Origin: Escherichia coli
GTDB taxonomy: Bacteria; Pseudomonadota; Gammaproteobacteria; Enterobacterales; Enterobacteriaceae
Direction: 5' to 3' (one strand)
NCBI RefSeq assembly: GCF_013122565.1
Contig: NZ_CP053258.1
Length of the DNA stretch: 64,000 nucleotides
This document shows, piece by piece, positions 51,001 through 60,000 of the stretch. A program made the position numbers. Numbering within the stretch: the stretch's first letter is position 1; each line of letters starts with the position of its first letter.

Positions 51001-54000
51001 ACGGATCACCGCCAAAGCTCCAGTTGGGACTTCGATCCGGCACTGTGCGGCGATATCCAGTTGCCCGCAGCGCAGAATGCGCCGCTGCAACTCGACCTGC
51101 GCAAACTTATCGGGCGGATCGCCTGCCGCTATCTGACGCCCGGCTGTGTCATCAATCTTGGCACCGGGATCCCCAATGATGTGATTGGCGCCATCATCCA
51201 TGAAGAACAGCTCGGCGAGCAAGTCACCATCACCGTTGAATCGGGGATCTACGGTGGGCAGCAGGCGGGCGGCGTTGATTTTGGTATCGGTCGTAATCTG
51301 AGCGCGATGATAAGTCACCAGGATCAAATGCTCTATTACAACGGCGCGGGCGTCGATATCACCTTTATGGGTGCCGGCGAGATGGATCCGCACGGTCACG
51401 TCAACGCCACGCGGCTCGGTGCATCCTGCCCCGGCGCAGGCGGTTTTATCGACATCACGCAGAATGCCCGCCACGTCGTGTTCTGCTCCTCTTTTACCGC
51501 CAAAGGGCTGGAGATTGCCTGTGAAAATGGGCAGTTGCATATCCTGCGCGAAGGCGAGGTACGTAAGTTCGTCGCCGGGGTTAATCAGATTTCTTATAAC
51601 GGTGAGCTGGCCCGCAACAAAGGCCAAACCATGCATTACGTCACCGAACGGGCAGTGTTCGAACTACGTCCGCAGGGACCGGTGCTGACGGAAATCGCCC
51701 CCGGCATCGATCTTGAGCGCGACATCCTGGCACATATGGATTTTCGTCCGGCTATCGCCGGGGATCTTAAGGTAATGGACAGCCGTTTATTTGCCCCGCA
51801 GCCCTGTGGCCTGGCGGAACATCTGTCCCACAATTCATCCTCTGACTCATAAGGAAATTAACTATGAAACTAGCCAGTAAAACGGCCATTGTCACCGGCG
51901 CCGCGCGCGGTATCGGATTTGGTATTGCCCAGGTGCTTGCGCGAGAAGGTGCCCGAGTCATCATCGCCGACCGCGACCCACATGGCGAAGCCACTGCCGC
52001 ATCCCTGCGCGAACAGGGTGCCCAGGCGCTGTTTATCAGCTGCAATATTGGCGATAAAACGCAGGTTGAAGCGCTGTTTTCCCAAGCCGAAGAAGCGTTT
52101 GGCCCGGTGGATATTCTGGTTAATAACGCCGGTATCAACCGCGACGCCATGTTGCACAAACTCACTGAAGCGGACTGGGACACGGTGATTGACGTCAATA
52201 TGAAGGGCACGTTTCTCTGTATGCAGCAGGCGGCAATCCGTATGCGCGAGCGCGGCACGGGCCGCATTATCAATATCGCTTCCGCAAGCTGGCTTGGCAA
52301 CGTTGGGCAAACCAACTATTCGGCGTCAAAAGCGGGCGTGGTCGGGATGACTAAAACCGCCTGTCGCGAACTGGCAAAAAAAGGGGTCACGGTTAACGCC
52401 ATCTGCCCCGGTTTTATTGATACCGATATGACGCGCGGCGTCCCGGAAAACGTCTGGCAAATCATGATCAACAAAATTCCTGCGGGCTACGCCGGGGAGG
52501 CGAAAGACGTTGGCGAGTGTGTGGCGTTTCTGGCGTCCGACGGCGCGCGCTATATCAATGGTGAAGTGATTAATGTCGGCGGCGGCATGGTTCTGTAAGG
52601 GGAAAAAGATGATACAGGCTAATGATATTGTGGTGGTCAGCGGCGTCCGTACCGCTATTGGCACGTTTAATGGCAGTCTTAAGCATACCCACCAGCATGA
52701 CCTGGGGGCAGCGGTCATTCGCGAAGCGGTCAGCCGCGCCGGACTTGCGCCGAAAGATATCGATGAAGTGATCGTCGGCAACGTTGGGCAAATCGCCGAA
52801 AGCGGTTTTATCGCCCGCATCTGCCAGCTTCGGGCGGGGATCCCGCAGGAAAGTACCGCGTATTCGGTTAACCGCCAGTGCGGCTCCGGTCTACAGGCCC
52901 TGGCAGACGGCATGATGCAGCTACAAAGCGGTCAGGCCGATGTCGTCGTCGCCTGCGGAACTGAAAATATGACCCAACTGCCCTACTACCTGCGTAAAGC
53001 GCGGGATGGCTATCGCATGGGTCATGGCGAGCTGGAAGATGGTCTGATTTCTATCCTCACCTGGCCTGAAGGGCCTTATCACAACGGCATCACGGCGGAA
53101 AACGTCGCGCAACAGTTCGGGATCACCCGCGAAGCGATGGACGATTTCGCCTGGTCAAGCCAGCAGAAGGCGCTGAAAGCCATCGCGCAGGATCGCTTTC
53201 GCGAACAGATCCTGCCCCTTGAAGTGCCGGACGGCAAAAAAGCCTCCCGCCTGTTCGCGGTTGATGAACACCCGCGTGACACCCCACGCGAAAAGCTCGC
53301 CACGCTGCGACCGGCATTTAAAGCCGACGGCGTGGTGACGGCAGCCAACTCATCCGGCATTAACGACGGTGCGGCTGCGCTGGTGATGATGACCCGTCAG
53401 CAGGCGGAAAAGCGTGGCTTAACCCCACTAATGCGGATCCGCGGCTGGGCGGTTGCCGGCTGCGGCGCAGATATCATGGGCTTTGGCCCTGCTCCCGCGA
53501 CCCGGCGTCTGATGGACCGTCTCAATATGGATGTCCACGCCATAGATTTAATTGAACTCAATGAGGCCTTCGCCGCCCAGGCGCTGGCGGTGATGAACGA
53601 TCTGCGTCTCGATCCGGCCCGCGTCAACGTTAATGGCGGCGCAATCGCCCTCGGACACCCGGTGGGTGCCAGCGGTGCGATCTTGCCGGTCAAACTCATG
53701 TATGAAATGGCGCGCAGCGGTGCACGTACCGGTCTGGTCACGATGTGCATCGGCGGCGGTCAGGGAATTTCTATGCTGTTCGAGCGCGAAGGCGCTTAGG
53801 AAAAGACGGCCCGAAGTGGGGCTTCGGGCCGAGCGTCGTTCGGGCCAGTACCCGGCGACAACCTATGAGCTGACGAACGGGATCGTGTCGATCCCGGCAA
53901 GGCTTCTGACCACGAATACGGGGAAATAATAACCATGTCCGCAATAAATGAAAAGGTGATAAACGGGACGCAGCTACAACGCACCCATAAAAAGATCTAC

Positions 54001-57000: not shown

Positions 57001-60000
57001 TACCCTGCGCAATCGCAATATTTCGCTGACGGCAGGCAATACTCTGCTGACGCAGATTGTCTATATGGGCATTAACGTTGTGCTGCCGCCGTATCTTTAT
57101 CATGTCTCCGGCCTGTCGCTGGCAGCATCCGCCGGGATGAGTATTATCTTTACGCTTACTGGTACTCTGGGGCAGATAATTTGGCCCTGGCTGTCCGACA
57201 GTTTTGGTCGTAAACGTACCCTGATTGTCTGCGGTCTGTGGATGAGTATCGGCATTGCACTGTTCTATTTCGCCACGAATATGCCGCGCCTTATCGCCAT
57301 TCAGCTATTTTTTGGACTGGTGGCAAACGCCGTGTGGCCTATCTATTACGCAATGGCCTCGGACTCCGCCGAAGAACGCGCCACCTCTACTGCAAACGGA
57401 ATTATCACCACGGCAATGTTTATTGGCGGTGGCATTTCGCCATTGCTCATGGGCTGGCTAATTCAGCTTGGTGGGGGTTGGGAAAACCCGGCGGGTTATA
57501 TCTACGCCTTCTTTACGATGGCGGGATGTGCGCTGCTGGGGATGCTGTTGCAGTTAATGACCAGTGATAAAACGCCGCGCAAAGCGCATTAATTCAGGAG
57601 AACGCATGAAGATTGTTATCGCGCTGGATCCTTTTAAGAGTCGGCTCCTCGCAGACGCTGCGGAGAATGTTATACGAACCTTTGTGAGCGGACGACGCAA
57701 AGAGAAACATAAGCGGATGACCTTATGATTATTACGACGGCGCTGGCTAATGAAATTGTCACCAGGGCGATGGCAATCATTCATCATAACGTGAACGTAA
57801 TTGACCATTATGGACAGATCATTGCCTCAGGTGAACGGCATCGTATCGGCGAGCAACATGAAATCGCCCGTGAGGTGATACGCACGGGTAAACGCATTTG
57901 TATTAACAACGCTGCTGAAGCCGCGCGTTTTAAGAATGTGCTTCCGGGTATTAATCATCCCATTATCTATGACGATCGCGTGGTGATGGTTGTGGGTATC
58001 AGCGGCGATCCCGCAGCGATCAGCCGCTATGCTGAACTGGCGGTGCTCACCGCCGAGCTGCTGGTCCGCCAGGCCGCCGAGATGCAAGAAACCAACTGGC
58101 GACAGCGCCTGCGCGATACCTTGTTTTGTCAGTATCTTGAGCAAGGTACCTCGCCCGCCGGGCAGGAATCACTCCATCGCCTGCTCGAAACTGGCTTCGC
58201 TTTTGATGCGCCGCTGGTACCAGTCGTCGTATCAGTGCAGGTTGAGCAGCACCAGCTAAGCGAAATTTTAAGTACGCTGCTGCGGGAGTTCTCCCGGTTG
58301 GCCGGGGTAAGAGACGTTATTTTGCTCGGCAGCAATGAGATTTTACTCCTCAATACGCTGAGCGAACCGCAGGAAACATTGCTGCGCAGCATTGAGTTTG
58401 TTCTTAGCAATCAGATCAGTCATTACCATATCGGGATAGGCGTACAGGCGGATAGCGCCCCGGATATTCGCGAGGCCATCAGATTCGCCCGTTCGGTGAT
58501 TGAAGTTGGGAGCAAAGTGCAGCCACAGCGGCAGATCTACTATTTTCGCGAAATGGCCATGCTCTGCCTGTTCCGGGTACTGGAAGACAGCTATATGGTG
58601 AATTTTTTTATCAATAATGTCCGCCAGTTGCTTGAACATGATTCTGGCGAAGTGCTGCTGGATACCCTGAGCAGCTTTATTGCCAATAACGCAGAGCTGG
58701 GTAAAACATCGCTGCTGTTGGGTATTCACCGCAATACGCTCACCTATCGTCTACAGCAGATAAAAAAGCATATCCAGCTCGATCCGATGGTCTTCACCGA
58801 CCTGACGCAACTGGCGGTGTCGGTACACTGCTATCGTCGGCAGAACCCGCGCCAGAGCGAATGGATCGATAGCTTAAGTTAAAACGCGATGGGGTCAGTT
58901 CATTATTTCAAAGAGCATAAGTACAGGAACAAATGTCGGATGCGCCACTGGGCACATCCGACAATCTTTTATTGTTCCATTGTCTCGCAAAACAAGCGTC
59001 GCATCATGCCTCTTTGACCCACAGCTGCGGAAAACGTGCTGGTGCAAAACGCAGGGTTATGATCATCAGCCCAACGACGCACAGCGCATGAAATACCCAG
59101 TCCATCAGGTAATTGCCGCTGATACTACGCAGCACGCCAGAAAACCACGGGGCAAGCCCGGCGATGATAAAACCGATCCCCTGCATAAACGCCACCAGCT
59201 TGCCAGCAATAGCAGGTTGCACAGAGTGATCGAGCGCCAGCAGCAAACAGAGCGGAAATGCGCCGCCCAGACCTAACCCACACACCATCACCCACAATAC
59301 CGGCAATTGCAGCGGCAACCAGATAAAGCCGCAGAACCCCACCAGTTGTAACACCAGCGCCAGCATTAACAGTTTGCGCCGATCCTGATGGCGAGCCATA
59401 GCAGGCATCAGCAAAGCTCCTGCGGCTTGCCCAAGCGTCATCAATGCCAGCAAGGAACCGCTGTACTGCGCGCTGGCACCAATCTCAATATAGAAAGCGG
59501 GTAACCAGGCAATCAGGCTGGCGTAACCGCCGTTAATCAGACCGAAGTAAAGGCCCAGCGTCCACGCGCGGGGAGTGAATACCACGCGAACCGGAGTGGT
59601 TGTGGTCTTGTGAGAAGAGGCGACCTCGCGGGCGCTTTGCCACCACCAGGCAAAGAGCGCAACAACGGCAGGCTGCGCCCACCAGGCGAGTGTTTGATAC
59701 CAGGTTTCGCTATGTTGAACTAACCAGGGCGTCAGGGCGGCACCAAGTCCACCGCCGCCCATCAGAGCCGCGGACCACAGCCCCATCACCAGTGGCGTGC
59801 GCTGCTGAAACCGCCGTTTAATCACCGAAGGCATCACCGCCTGAATGATGCCGATCCCCACCCCACCAAGCAGTGCGCTGCTAAGCAGCAGCGCACTTTG
59901 GGGGTAAAGCTCACGCATCAATGCACCGACGGCAATCAGTAACAAACTGATGGCGACGCTGCGACGTTCGCTGACATGCTGATGAAGCCAGCTTCCGGCC

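What the first reader, a model, noticed from the sequence alone, without database searches (positions are those of the whole stretch)
53935..58882. Transport/lactonase module with a CdaR-type regulator: MFS, SMP-30 lactonase, MFS, CdaR
Two different MFS permeases flank an SMP-30/gluconolactonase-family gene and are followed by a CdaR/PucR-family regulator. In E. coli, CdaR regulates sugar-diacid (glucarate/galactarate/glycerate) genes. This suggests uptake and ring-opening of a sugar-acid lactone or related hydroxy-acid. Its juxtaposition with the CoA-dependent module upstream (not the usual dehydratase/aldolase genes of sugar-acid pathways) is atypical and may indicate a non-canonical route.
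Basis: inference. Interest (0 to 1): 0.6.

Follow-up and report, generated by a model that had tools for sequence, protein, structure and literature searches.

The report
Deoxyribonate-catabolism operon replacing lac in E. coli
The two permeases, the lactonase and the CdaR-type regulator are the back half of a published Klebsiella-type operon for burning 2-deoxyribonate (an oxidised DNA sugar) through CoA thioesters, here sitting where an E. coli-like chromosome normally has the lac operon.

Summary
53935-58882 encodes an MFS permease, an SMP-30 lactonase with an intact metal triad, a second MFS permease and a CdaR-family regulator.

It is not a separate module. It is the distal half of one co-oriented gene array, 48707-58882: acyl-CoA synthetase, CoA-transferase, SDR, thiolase, MFS1, lactonase, MFS2, a glycerate-kinase remnant and the regulator. 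Gene content and order match the Klebsiella michiganensis cluster that Price et al. 2019 tied by mutant fitness to 2-deoxy-D-ribonate catabolism through acyl-CoA intermediates. The proposed products are acetyl-CoA and glyceryl-CoA, then glycerate.

The proteins are 93-96% identical to Klebsiella orthologues, all full length, with dN/dS of 0.04-0.10. In 77 of 80 species, this lactonase's orthologue lies beside either this CoA module or the Pseudomonas BKACE module.

Three things are specific to this window:
- The cluster replaces lacIZYA on an E. coli-like chromosome and is absent from 5426 complete E. coli genomes.
- The glycerate kinase gene is reduced to an in-frame 40-codon stub.
- A 135-nt three-hairpin spacer upstream of MFS1 is more conserved than the flanking genes' third codon positions and has no Rfam match.

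Interest is modest.

The parts
48423..48483 (+). Remnant of the E. coli mhpR-lacI intergenic / lacI promoter region. Homology to the E. coli backbone ends at 48483, a few bases before where the lacI start codon would be.
   Evidence: This stretch matches L086:1292-1352, which lies between mhpR and lacI. Matches to E. coli strains carrying OI-19 stop at query position 6484, which is window 48483.
48484..48516 (.). Left junction: 33 bases matching neither the E. coli backbone nor the Klebsiella loci.
   Evidence: Klebsiella oxytoca and grimontii homology starts at 48517. The sequence is shown and alignment A1.
48586..48634 (+). Phylogenetic footprint in the operon's upstream region. Block A is TTGTGCAAnGTTACAA (48586-48601). 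Block B is TTTTGTTGATTTTnTnnTGTGA (48613-48634), which ends in a CRP-like TGTGA half-site. This is a candidate operator/promoter for the CdaR-type regulator.
   Evidence: Both blocks are invariant or nearly so in 10 species, while the rest of the region is only 58% conserved. Block A occurs once in the window, with none upstream of 53935 or 56255 at up to 3 mismatches. ATTGTGCAA and TGTGATCAAT also occur in the E. coli garP-garD intergenic region, which is CdaR-controlled. That is a weak lead.
48707..50263 (+). AMP-forming acyl-CoA synthetase, proposed to be the deoxyribonate-CoA ligase (orthologue position of BWI76_RS23695).
   Evidence: It matches NCBIfam acyl-CoA ligase models. It is 94% identical to K. 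oxytoca over its full length, with dN/dS of 0.08. The role is taken from PMC6365646.
50260..51852 (+). Family-I CoA-transferase (YdiF/FadX-like), proposed to convert glyceryl-CoA to glycerate (orthologue position of BWI76_RS23700).
   Evidence: It matches FadX-like at 7.5e-115 and the CoA-transferase subunit A and B models. It is 94% identical to Klebsiella.
51864..52598 (+). FabG-like SDR, proposed to be the 3-hydroxyacyl-CoA (deoxyribonyl-CoA) dehydrogenase (orthologue position of BWI76_RS23705).
   Evidence: It is only about 31% identical to the P. simiae free-acid deoxyribonate dehydrogenase, so it is a different enzyme.
52609..53799 (+). Thiolase, proposed to cleave 3-keto-deoxyribonyl-CoA to acetyl-CoA plus glyceryl-CoA (orthologue position of BWI76_RS23710). 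The start is set at 52609 (396 aa) by homology. The longest ORF starts at 52573.
   Evidence: It matches TIGR01930 at 452 bits, above the 240.55-bit cut-off. The Klebsiella gene is called at 396 aa, and the alignment covers residues 1-396 at 96% identity.
53800..53934 (+). Conserved structured intercistronic spacer with three hairpins: H1 53807-53831, H2 53835-53859 and H3 53878-53896. The MFS1 ribosome-binding site follows.
   Evidence: Alignment A2 has 82% mean column identity. Spacer identity to other species is 96-70%, against 80-50% at third codon positions of the flanking genes. Four base pairs carry compensatory changes and 97% of cells are paired, against 23-54% in slid controls. Folding z-scores are -1.4 to -5. 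There is no Rfam match. The element is found only at this position of this operon type.
53935..55272 (+). MFS1, an anionic sugar-acid (ACS-type) permease and the proposed main deoxyribonate importer (orthologue position of BWI76_RS23715, fitness -4.0 on deoxyribonate).
   Evidence: It is 96% identical to Klebsiella and 56% to the second MFS of the P. simiae cluster.
55286..56164 (+). SMP-30/SGL six-bladed propeller lactonase, the proposed 2-deoxy-D-ribonolactonase (orthologue position of BWI76_RS23720 / PS417_07255).
   Evidence: It is 70% identical to the P. simiae orthologue. Its orthologues lie next to a beta-keto-cleavage module in 77 of 80 species.
56165..56254 (+). Second intercistronic spacer, with a 13-bp hairpin (56173-56210) and the conserved motif CTCTGACCCTGAC.
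   Evidence: Alignment A3 has 69% mean column identity. The fold has a z-score of -3.8.
56255..57592 (+). MFS2, a second permease that travels with the lactonase (orthologue position of BWI76_RS23725 / PS417_07260, fitness -1.4). Suggested here to import the neutral lactone.
   Evidence: It is 96% identical to Klebsiella and 67% to P. simiae. It sits about 0.9 kb downstream of the lactonase start in all 34 loci where it was detected, including several that lack MFS1. It is also adjacent in the Providencia loci.
57606..57728 (+). In-frame remnant of the glycerate kinase gene: 40 codons, made of roughly the first dozen and the last 28 codons of a 392-codon garK. Its stop overlaps the regulator's ATG (ATGA).
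   Evidence: DNA homology to Klebsiella jumps from L008:12375 to L008:13431.
57725..58882 (+). CdaR-family regulator (Diacid_rec + GGDEF_2 + HTH_30) and last gene of the array. It is the proposed activator, responding to deoxyribonate or glycerate.
   Evidence: It is present at the same position in 8 of 9 enterobacterial loci.
58884..58916 (.). Right junction: 33 bases of unassigned origin.
   Evidence: Klebsiella homology ends at 58883. The E. coli lacA-cynX intergenic variant starts at 58917, which corresponds to the first base after the lacA stop in strain 2012C-4221.
58934..58963 (.). Native E. coli hairpin terminator between the former lacA and cynX. It has a 13-bp stem and T-rich runs on both sides, and is the likely 3' end of the new operon.
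   Evidence: See the terminator scan and the sequence.

Best explanation
The segment is the transport, lactonase and regulator half of a horizontally acquired operon (48707-58882) for catabolism of 2-deoxy-D-ribonate and its lactone through acyl-CoA intermediates.

Proposed mechanism. The enzymatic steps are those proposed by Price et al. 2019 from genetics. Points marked 'inferred here' are my own.
1. Deoxyribonate, an anion, enters through MFS1.
2. The neutral 2-deoxyribonolactone, which is in equilibrium with it, enters through MFS2. The metal-dependent SMP-30 lactonase opens it in the cytoplasm (inferred here).
3. The acyl-CoA synthetase makes deoxyribonyl-CoA.
4. The FabG-like SDR oxidises C3 to give 3-keto-deoxyribonyl-CoA.
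5. The thiolase cleaves this to acetyl-CoA plus D-glyceryl-CoA.
6. The CoA-transferase releases D-glycerate. It may pass the CoA to a fresh deoxyribonate, so that ATP is needed only to prime the cycle (inferred here).
7. Glycerate is phosphorylated to 2-phosphoglycerate.

In this strain the operon's own glycerate kinase is deleted, so the host's GarK or GlxK must perform step 7 (inferred here). The CdaR-family protein, translated last, probably activates the single promoter upstream of 48707 through the conserved TTGTGCAAnGTTACAA region, in response to deoxyribonate or glycerate (inferred here).

The structured spacers before MFS1 and MFS2 probably set transporter-to-enzyme expression ratios at the RNA level (inferred here).
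For: - **Gene order.** Order and content are identical to loci in K. pneumoniae, K. oxytoca, K. grimontii, Raoultella, [Erwinia] mediterraneensis, CwR94, Franconibacter and Affinibrenneria. They also match the order given for K. michiganensis BWI76_RS23695-RS23730 in PMC6365646.
- **Published genetics.** That cluster is important for growth on deoxyribonate but in none of about 95 other conditions. MFS1 mutants score -4.0, MFS2 mutants -1.4 and lactonase mutants -1.1 to -1.3.
- **Same identities as the paper.** The lactonase is 70%, MFS2 67% and MFS1 56% identical to the P. simiae cluster proteins. The paper reports 70% and 'over 50%'.
- **Linkage.** Of 80 species loci carrying an orthologue of this lactonase (at least 64% identity), 9 carry the CoA module and 68 carry the BKACE plus deoxyribonate-dehydrogenase module. 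The other 3 are cut contigs.
- **Glycerate link.** A glycerate kinase gene lies inside the cluster in 5 enterobacterial species loci and in Solimonas, and in K. pneumoniae locus L001. This points to a C3 glycerate product and so a 2-deoxy C5 substrate.
- **Intact genes.** All eight genes are full length with dN/dS of 0.04-0.10. The lactonase metal triad and the substrate residues R99, N101 and E120 are kept.
- **Single transcription unit.** There is one conserved upstream footprint. No + strand promoter-like site falls in the internal spacers. The garK remnant and the regulator gene overlap as ATGA.
Against: - No experiment exists for this strain.
- The Klebsiella pathway rests on mutant fitness. 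None of its enzymes, including the lactonase, has been shown to act on the proposed substrates. In vitro the P. simiae lactonase was not needed for deoxyribonate formation.
- I compared the window with species of the K. oxytoca complex and with K. pneumoniae, not with strain M5al itself.
- garK is lost here, so the pathway is incomplete unless host kinases substitute.
- The low dN/dS may mostly reflect selection in the donor lineage rather than in the present host.
- The regulator's ligand, its binding site and its sign of action are all unknown. The paper does not mention the regulator.
- Why two permeases are needed is unexplained in the literature. The lactone/anion split is my inference, and polar effects on garK could equally explain the mild phenotypes.
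Confidence: 0.82

Rival explanations
1. This is a sugar-diacid or ordinary aldonolactone module. The permeases would import glucarate, galactarate or an aldonolactone, the lactonase would open it, and a CdaR orthologue would control it as in the E. coli gud/gar regulon. The CoA genes upstream would be an unrelated neighbouring operon.
For: The regulator has the CdaR domain set. MFS1's closest named family is the D-galactonate / ACS transporter family. The lactonase's nearest solved relatives are a xylonolactonase and gluconolactonases, and some databases name its orthologues L-arabinonolactonase.
Against: The locus and its orthologous loci contain no dehydratase, aldolase or tartronate-semialdehyde reductase. 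The regulator is only 28% identical to CdaR and far below the orthologue cut-off. The CoA genes and the transport genes are co-oriented and syntenic in all nine species, with short conserved spacers and one upstream footprint. The lactonase orthologues are almost always beside a beta-keto-cleavage module. K. michiganensis mutants in the cluster showed a phenotype only on deoxyribonate.
Confidence: 0.04
2. The chemistry is the same, but the natural substrate is different. The operon would degrade another 3-hydroxy or 2-deoxy acid or lactone, such as 2-deoxy-D-threo-pentonate, 2-deoxygluconate, 3,4-dihydroxybutyrate or an alkyl lactone. Deoxyribonate would only be a laboratory surrogate.
For: Deoxyribonate was the only such compound tested. 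Its natural abundance is poorly known (text). A homologue of the BKACE enzyme used in the Pseudomonas variant is active on several beta-keto acids. Lactonases of the wider beta-propeller group can be broad in specificity (title of PMC9843451).
Against: A glycerate kinase embedded in the cluster in several lineages fixes the cleavage product as a C3 glyceryl unit, and hence the substrate as a 2-deoxy-pentonate. Two unrelated cleavage solutions, thiolase and BKACE, have been recruited next to the same lactonase and permease. That argues for one well-defined substrate.
Confidence: 0.1
3. This is a decaying passenger. The cluster arrived by horizontal transfer, destroyed lac, has begun to erode (garK is deleted) and is not expressed or used in this host.
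For: garK is reduced to 40 codons. The cluster is absent from 5426 complete E. coli genomes. No identical proteins are on record, so it is rare. The sequence divergence cannot be assigned to a particular lineage.
Against: Eight of eight remaining genes are full length without frameshifts, and dN/dS is 0.04-0.10. The garK deletion is in frame and preserves the ATGA coupling to the regulator gene. Three other genera naturally lack garK in this cluster, and E. coli has garK and glxK of its own (for garK; glxK from general knowledge). The promoter footprint and the spacer element are intact.
Confidence: 0.12

Closest known systems
Klebsiella michiganensis M5al deoxyribonate utilisation cluster BWI76_RS23695-RS23730 (Price et al. 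2019, mSystems 4:e00297-18)
   Same: The genes occur in the same order: CoA-synthetase, CoA-transferase, beta-hydroxyacyl-CoA dehydrogenase, thiolase, MFS, lactonase, MFS. Proteins are 93-96% identical to the same cluster in K. oxytoca, K. grimontii and K. pneumoniae.
   Different: The glycerate kinase gene is reduced to an in-frame 40-codon remnant. The host is an E. coli-like chromosome, and the cluster occupies the lacIZYA site. Nucleotide identity to sampled Klebsiella is only about 90%, so the donor lineage is unsampled. The CdaR-type regulator, the upstream footprint and the structured spacer are not described in the paper.
Pseudomonas simiae WCS417 deoxyribose/deoxyribonate cluster PS417_07240-07265 (same paper)
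   Same: It has an orthologous lactonase (70%) and both MFS permeases (67% and 56%). The overall logic is the same: oxidise C3, then cleave to an acetyl unit plus glyceryl-CoA.
   Different: Pseudomonas oxidises the free acid with a different SDR (about 31% identical). It cleaves with a BKACE enzyme plus acetyl-CoA and uses a GntR regulator. It has no synthetase, CoA-transferase, thiolase or CdaR-type regulator. The permease order is also different.
E. coli CdaR (SdaR) and the gud/gar/glycerate regulon
   Same: The regulator has the same three-domain architecture and a similar HTH (IHRNTLtYRL against IHRNTLeYRL). Both are linked to glycerate metabolism and a GarK-type kinase. The short words ATTGTGCAA and TGTGATCAAT are shared with the garP-garD intergenic region.
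   Different: It is only 28% identical to CdaR. It scores 157 bits against a 612-bit cut-off. It is encoded inside its target operon as the last gene. The target genes are CoA-dependent enzymes, not dehydratases or aldolases.
SMP-30/regucalcin and Caulobacter XylC six-bladed propeller lactonases
   Same: It gives a full-length PF08450 match. The planar metal triad Glu/Asn/Asp and the Arg99/Asn101/Glu120 substrate contacts are conserved.
   Different: The XylC ring-stacking residue Trp211 aligns with Val213 here (alignment). The orthologue group is tied to deoxyribonate gene clusters rather than to pentose or hexose oxidation. Its activity has not been measured.

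Membership tests
Klebsiella-type acyl-CoA deoxyribonate oxidation cluster (Price et al. 2019) | A co-oriented array of CoA-synthetase, CoA-transferase, beta-hydroxyacyl-CoA dehydrogenase and thiolase, followed by MFS, lactonase and MFS. | tested here: met
   The ORFs are and the family matches. Synteny and 69-96% identity hold across nine Enterobacterales loci. The order is as listed in the paper.
Klebsiella-type acyl-CoA deoxyribonate oxidation cluster (Price et al. 2019) | The lactonase is about 70% identical, and both permeases over 50% identical, to the P. 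simiae cluster proteins. | tested here: met
   The values are 70%, 67% and 56% against P. simiae CCUG 50988.
Klebsiella-type acyl-CoA deoxyribonate oxidation cluster (Price et al. 2019) | A glycerate kinase gene lies inside the cluster. | tested here: not met
   Only a 40-codon in-frame remnant remains at 57606-57728. Franconibacter and Affinibrenneria also lack garK in this cluster, so the feature is not universal.
Klebsiella-type acyl-CoA deoxyribonate oxidation cluster (Price et al. 2019) | The cluster is required for growth on 2-deoxy-D-ribonate. | not testable with these tools
   This needs growth and mutant assays in this strain.
SMP-30/gluconolactonase/LRE family (Pfam PF08450) | A full-length profile match. 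| tested here: met
   The E-value is 1.3e-80 over model positions 1-245 of 246.
SMP-30/gluconolactonase/LRE family (Pfam PF08450) | A Glu/Asn/Asp metal-binding triad. | tested here: met
   E15, N147 and D198 align with XylC E18/N146/D196 and SMP30 E18/N154/D204.
SMP-30/gluconolactonase/LRE family (Pfam PF08450) | Lactone hydrolase activity. | not testable with these tools
   No enzymology is available. Even the P. simiae orthologue's activity was not demonstrated.
CdaR/PucR family regulators | The domain set Diacid_rec + GGDEF-like + PucR C-terminal HTH. | tested here: met
   The E-values are 4.4e-41 (PF05651), 6.9e-07 (PF17853) and 4.7e-12 (PF13556).
E. coli CdaR orthologue (NCBIfam NF008550) | A score above the curated equivalog cut-off of 612 bits. 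| tested here: not met
   The score is 156.6 bits, and identity to K-12 CdaR is 28%.
ACS (anion:cation symporter) family of the MFS, TIGR00893 | A score above the curated cut-off of 395 bits. | tested here: not met
   MFS1 scores 270 bits and MFS2 108 bits. Both are clearly MFS proteins, but subfamily membership is not established by this model.
Rfam RNA families (for the 53800-53934 spacer) | A covariance-model match at E of 1 or below. | tested here: not met
   There were no matches in 48400-59100 on either strand.

The most novel reading that the evidence does not exclude
The 135-nt three-hairpin spacer between the thiolase and MFS1 genes (53800-53934) is an undescribed cis-acting regulatory RNA specific to this operon type. 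It could be a metabolite- or protein-responsive element, or a processing and stability element. Its role would be to uncouple permease and lactonase expression from enzyme expression. The less conserved hairpin spacer before MFS2 may play a similar part. A more generic reading, that the spacer is functionally constrained at the RNA level in some way, is more likely (about 0.6).
Probability: 0.25. Interest if true: 0.55.

Novelty: new member of a known kind. Interest (0 to 1): 0.3.

Why it matters
- **Function.** It assigns a concrete, testable function to a ten-gene island that automated annotation labels only generically. The function is catabolism of 2-deoxyribonate and its lactone, oxidised forms of the DNA sugar. 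Deoxyribonate is reported in human urine (PMC6365646).
- **Host range.** The Klebsiella-type CoA route has moved into an Escherichia chromosome, at the cost of the lac operon. Such a strain should be Lac-negative at this locus and may be able to use deoxyribonate. That matters for identification schemes and for gut-niche questions.
- **Natural experiment.** Loss of the cluster's own glycerate kinase tests whether host GarK or GlxK can complete the pathway.
- **Open points in the published pathway.** The analysis adds the CdaR-type regulator with a conserved upstream footprint. It adds a lactone/anion division of labour that would explain why two permeases are needed. It also adds a conserved structured intercistronic RNA-like element.

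Tried and rejected
- **Cluster in E. coli genomes.** The only match was an 84-bp stretch of the lacA-cynX intergenic region.
- **Exact-sequence look-ups.** The lactonase, SDR and regulator are not on record, so neither the strain nor close relatives could be identified.
- **Rfam over the whole operon at E up to 1.** Nothing was found.
- **Covariance model of the spacer.**
  - It was searched against Pseudomonas, Mesorhizobium and other lactonase loci. Hits occurred only in the enterobacterial CoA-type clusters.
  - The spacer is therefore not a repeated element and not part of the BKACE-type clusters.
- **Metagenome scan with the H1 hairpin pattern.** It returned 53 loci, almost all Klebsiella duplicates. 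Only 16 distinct rows from about 7 lineages remained, so the covariation test has little power.
- **Strand of the spacer structure.** Both strands fold about equally well. An antisense small RNA ending at H1, which has a T-run on the minus strand, cannot be excluded.
- **Upstream motif before 53935 and 56255.** No copy was found, and no + strand sigma-70-like site lies in the spacers. Internal CdaR-dependent promoters were therefore not supported.
- **Published CdaR operator consensus.** None was found. The comparison with the E. coli gar and gud control regions gave only short shared words. One 10-mer and one 9-mer were shared, against roughly 0.1 and 0.4 expected by chance (my estimate), and only with gar.
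- **Canonical gud/gar-type sugar-diacid pathway.** Rejected because the dehydratase and aldolase genes are missing.
- **MBL-fold hydrolase and GlxA/OvrA genes (46695-48456) as part of the cluster.**
  - Rejected. They belong to the E. coli backbone island and are present in 435 E. coli genomes.
  - They are absent from the Klebsiella loci.
- **Literature search for a lac replacement of this kind.** Nothing relevant was found.

Full report
**1. The observation**

- ORF 53935-55272 is an MFS permease. Its best named relatives are the anionic sugar-acid/aromatic-acid (ACS) group: HpaX at 2e-86 and TIGR00893 at 2.5e-80, both below the curated cut-offs.
- ORF 55286-56164 gives a full-length Pfam SGL match at 1.3e-80 (PF08450, the SMP-30/gluconolactonase/LRE region). 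Its best solved relative is the Caulobacter xylonolactonase 7PLB (1e-41), followed by mammalian regucalcin/SMP30.
- ORF 56255-57592 is a second, different MFS permease.
- ORF 57725-58882 has the CdaR architecture Diacid_rec + GGDEF_2 + HTH_30.

The metal triad is conserved as E15, N147 and D198. It matches E18/N146/D196 of XylC and E18/N154/D204 of SMP30 (roles from PMC8820113). R99, N101 and E120 are also kept.

**2. What the segment belongs to**

The genes upstream are co-oriented and tightly spaced:
- acyl-CoA synthetase, 48707-50263
- family-I CoA-transferase, 50260-51852
- FabG-like SDR, 51864-52598
- thiolase, 52609-53799

The closest lactonase relative is 96% identical and lies in Klebsiella. 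The K. pneumoniae locus has the order synthetase, CoA-transferase, SDR, thiolase, MFS, lactonase, MFS, glycerate kinase, CdaR-type regulator. In Pseudomonas syringae a 68%-identical lactonase follows a GntR regulator, an SDR and a BKACE (beta-keto-acid cleavage enzyme), and precedes an MFS.

These are the two arrangements described by Price et al. 2019 (PMC6365646). In P. simiae, deoxyribose or deoxyribonate is oxidised to 2-deoxy-3-keto-ribonate and cleaved by the BKACE enzyme to acetoacetate plus glyceryl-CoA.

In K. michiganensis M5al, the cluster BWI76_RS23695-RS23730 was important for growth on deoxyribonate and in none of about 95 other conditions. The authors proposed this route: deoxyribonyl-CoA, then 3-keto-deoxyribonyl-CoA, then acetyl-CoA plus glyceryl-CoA, then glycerate, then 2-phosphoglycerate.

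**3. Tests of that assignment**

- All eight intact window proteins align end to end with orthologues in nine Enterobacterales species at 69-96% identity, in identical order.
- Against P. simiae the lactonase is 70%, MFS2 67% and MFS1 56% identical. These are the figures the paper gives for the Klebsiella proteins.
- I examined 80 species-representative loci carrying a lactonase orthologue of at least 64% identity.
  - Nine have the CoA module.
  - Sixty-eight have BKACE plus the deoxyribonate dehydrogenase directly upstream.
  - The remaining three are truncated contigs.
  - The orthologue group is therefore essentially always attached to one of two beta-keto-cleavage solutions.
- A glycerate kinase gene sits inside the cluster in Klebsiella, Raoultella, [Erwinia] mediterraneensis, CwR94 and, in a BKACE-type cluster, Solimonas. 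This fits a C3 glyceryl product and hence a 2-deoxy-pentonate substrate.
- Against K. oxytoca, K. grimontii and K. pneumoniae, nucleotide identity is 87-92%, amino-acid identity 93-97% and dN/dS 0.04-0.10. All gene lengths are equal.

I could not retrieve strain M5al itself. The comparison is with close relatives of the same species complex.

**4. Mechanism**

The enzymatic steps are those of Price et al. and rest on genetics, not enzymology.

My addition concerns the two permeases, whose joint requirement the authors could not explain. MFS2 sits just downstream of the lactonase gene in all 34 loci where it was detected, including lineages that lack MFS1. In K. michiganensis its fitness defect (-1.4) matches that of the lactonase (-1.1 to -1.3), while MFS1 is much stronger (-4.0).

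A simple reading follows. MFS1 imports the anion. MFS2 imports the neutral lactone that equilibrates with it, and the lactonase opens it inside the cell. Polar effects on garK are an alternative explanation.

The CoA-transferase could recycle CoA from glyceryl-CoA onto incoming deoxyribonate. This is inference only.

**5. Regulation**

The regulator is only 28% identical to E. coli CdaR and scores 157 bits against a 612-bit cut-off. It is a paralogue. It is the last gene of the array, and its ATG overlaps the stop of the preceding reading frame.

The region upstream of 48707 has two blocks that are invariant or nearly so in ten species:
- TTGTGCAAnGTTACAA at 48586-48601
- TTTTGTTGATTTTnTnnTGTGA at 48613-48634, ending in a CRP-like TGTGA

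They stand in an otherwise poorly conserved region of 58% column identity. Block A has no second copy before 53935 or 56255. No + strand sigma-70-like site falls in the internal spacers. A single regulated promoter is therefore the simplest model.

I found no published CdaR operator. The words ATTGTGCAA and TGTGATCAAT also occur in the CdaR-controlled garP-garD intergenic region of K-12, but not upstream of gudP. This is a weak lead.

**6. What is particular to this window**

*(a) Host and site.*
- The flanks are E. coli: 98.0% identity over cynXST-cynR-codA, up to 99.4% over mhpCBA-mhpR and 97.3-98.9% further left.
- In E. coli the interval between mhpR and cynX holds lacIZYA.
- Backbone homology stops at 48483, inside the lacI promoter. 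It resumes at 58917, the first base after the lacA stop in strains with that intergenic variant.
- Klebsiella homology runs from 48517 to 58883. This leaves 33 unassigned bases at each junction.
- No lac sequence remains in the window.
- None of 5426 complete E. coli genomes carries the cluster. The exact proteins are not on record.
- The roughly 90% nucleotide identity to sampled Klebsiella implies an unsampled donor or an old transfer.
- A copy lies on a 280-kb K. pneumoniae plasmid next to ISKpn1, which is a possible vehicle.

*(b) The glycerate kinase gene.*
- garK is reduced to an in-frame 40-codon remnant at 57606-57728. It joins roughly the first dozen codons to the last 28 of a 392-codon gene and keeps the ATGA overlap with the regulator gene.
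- Franconibacter and Affinibrenneria lack garK altogether in this cluster.
- E. coli has its own garK, and glxK from general knowledge.

*(c) The spacer before MFS1.*
- The 135-nt spacer 53800-53934 is strikingly conserved, with 82% mean column identity.
- Its identity to the other species is 96, 96, 90, 76, 83, 79 and 70%. Third codon positions of the flanking genes are 80 to 50% identical for the same pairs.
- It folds into three hairpins: 53807-53831, 53835-59 and 53878-96.
- Four base pairs carry compensatory changes and 97% of cells are paired, against 23-54% in slid controls.
- It has no Rfam match. It occurs only at this position of this operon type.
- Only about seven independent lineages are available and the strand is undetermined. 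I therefore treat it as a candidate cis-regulatory or processing RNA, not an established one.
- The spacer before MFS2 also holds a stable hairpin but is less conserved.

**7. Comparison with known systems, and verdict**

The segment is a member of the Klebsiella-type acyl-CoA deoxyribonate cluster on gene content, order and orthology. One listed feature, the embedded glycerate kinase, was tested and is not met.
- It works like the P. simiae pathway but shares only the lactonase and the two permeases with it.
- Its regulator belongs to the CdaR family but is not CdaR.
- Its lactonase is a bona fide SMP-30-family protein whose substrate has never been measured.

I rate the novelty as a new member of a known kind and the interest as modest (0.3). 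The most novel reading that remains open is that the conserved spacer is an undescribed regulatory RNA.

Noticed in passing
window 53800-53934: The 135-nt intercistronic spacer between the thiolase and MFS1 genes has three hairpins with compensatory changes. It is more conserved than third codon positions of the flanking genes, has no Rfam match, and is found only in this operon type.
   Followed up: partly
window 48484-58916 (junctions 48483/48484 and 58916/58917): The 10.4-kb Klebsiella-like cluster replaces lacI-lacZ-lacY-lacA between the lacI promoter and the lacA-cynX intergenic region of an E. coli-like chromosome. Each junction has 33 unassigned bases. The cluster is absent from all 5426 complete E. 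coli genomes searched.
   Followed up: partly
window 57606-57728: The glycerate kinase gene is reduced by an in-frame deletion of about 1056 bp to a 40-codon ORF. The ORF still overlaps the regulator's start codon (ATGA), and an AGCT microhomology may lie at the deletion ends in the Klebsiella sequence.
   Followed up: yes
window 46695-48456: An MBL-fold hydrolase gene and a GlxA/FtrA-like AraC regulator gene lie between mhpR and the former lacI promoter. RefSeq annotates the regulator as OvrA, 'OI-19-encoded virulence regulator'. They are E. coli backbone-island genes present in 435 of 5426 genomes and are not part of the deoxyribonate cluster.
   Followed up: partly
window 1-24000 and 24001-46000: The best identity to any complete E. 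coli genome is only 97.3% over the first 24 kb and 98.9% over the next 22 kb. This suggests a lineage poorly represented among complete E. coli genomes, possibly a divergent or cryptic Escherichia clade.
   Followed up: no
window 56165-56254: The spacer before MFS2 contains a 13-bp hairpin (z = -3.8) and the conserved motif CTCTGACCCTGAC. A similar TCTGACC lies before MFS1 at about 53905-53911.
   Followed up: no
window 48586-48645 and L142:6909-7282 (E. coli K-12 garP-garD intergenic region): The operon's upstream footprint shares ATTGTGCAA and TGTGATCAAT with the CdaR-controlled garP-garD control region. The gudP upstream region has only a GTGCAA-like word. This may hint at a CdaR-family half-site plus a CRP site.
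   Followed up: partly
L004/L005 (Providencia rettgeri) 10001-12288 and downstream: A lactonase plus MFS2 pair (72% identity) occurs without either beta-keto-cleavage module. It lies next to genes for an AraC regulator, a DeoC-like aldolase, a PfkB kinase, RbsD/FucU, a zinc ADH, an enolase-superfamily protein and an amidohydrolase. This may be a third context for this lactonase and permease.
   Followed up: no
L006 (K. pneumoniae ATCC 13883) about 12128 onward: In this type strain, homology to the cluster stops inside MFS2 at about codon 380. No garK or regulator was found within the locus, so the cluster appears disrupted there.
   Followed up: no
plasmid NZ_CP091979.1 (K. pneumoniae, 279,569 bp) 133842-146689: A copy of the whole cluster (89% identity), interrupted or flanked by an ISKpn1 transposase gene, lies on a large Klebsiella plasmid. 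This is a plausible vehicle for transfer between genera.
   Followed up: no
L029 (Solimonas marina) about 12200: A BKACE-type deoxyribonate cluster carries a glycerate kinase gene (45% identical to Klebsiella GarK) directly after MFS2, the same position as in Klebsiella. This independently links the two pathway variants to glycerate.
   Followed up: no
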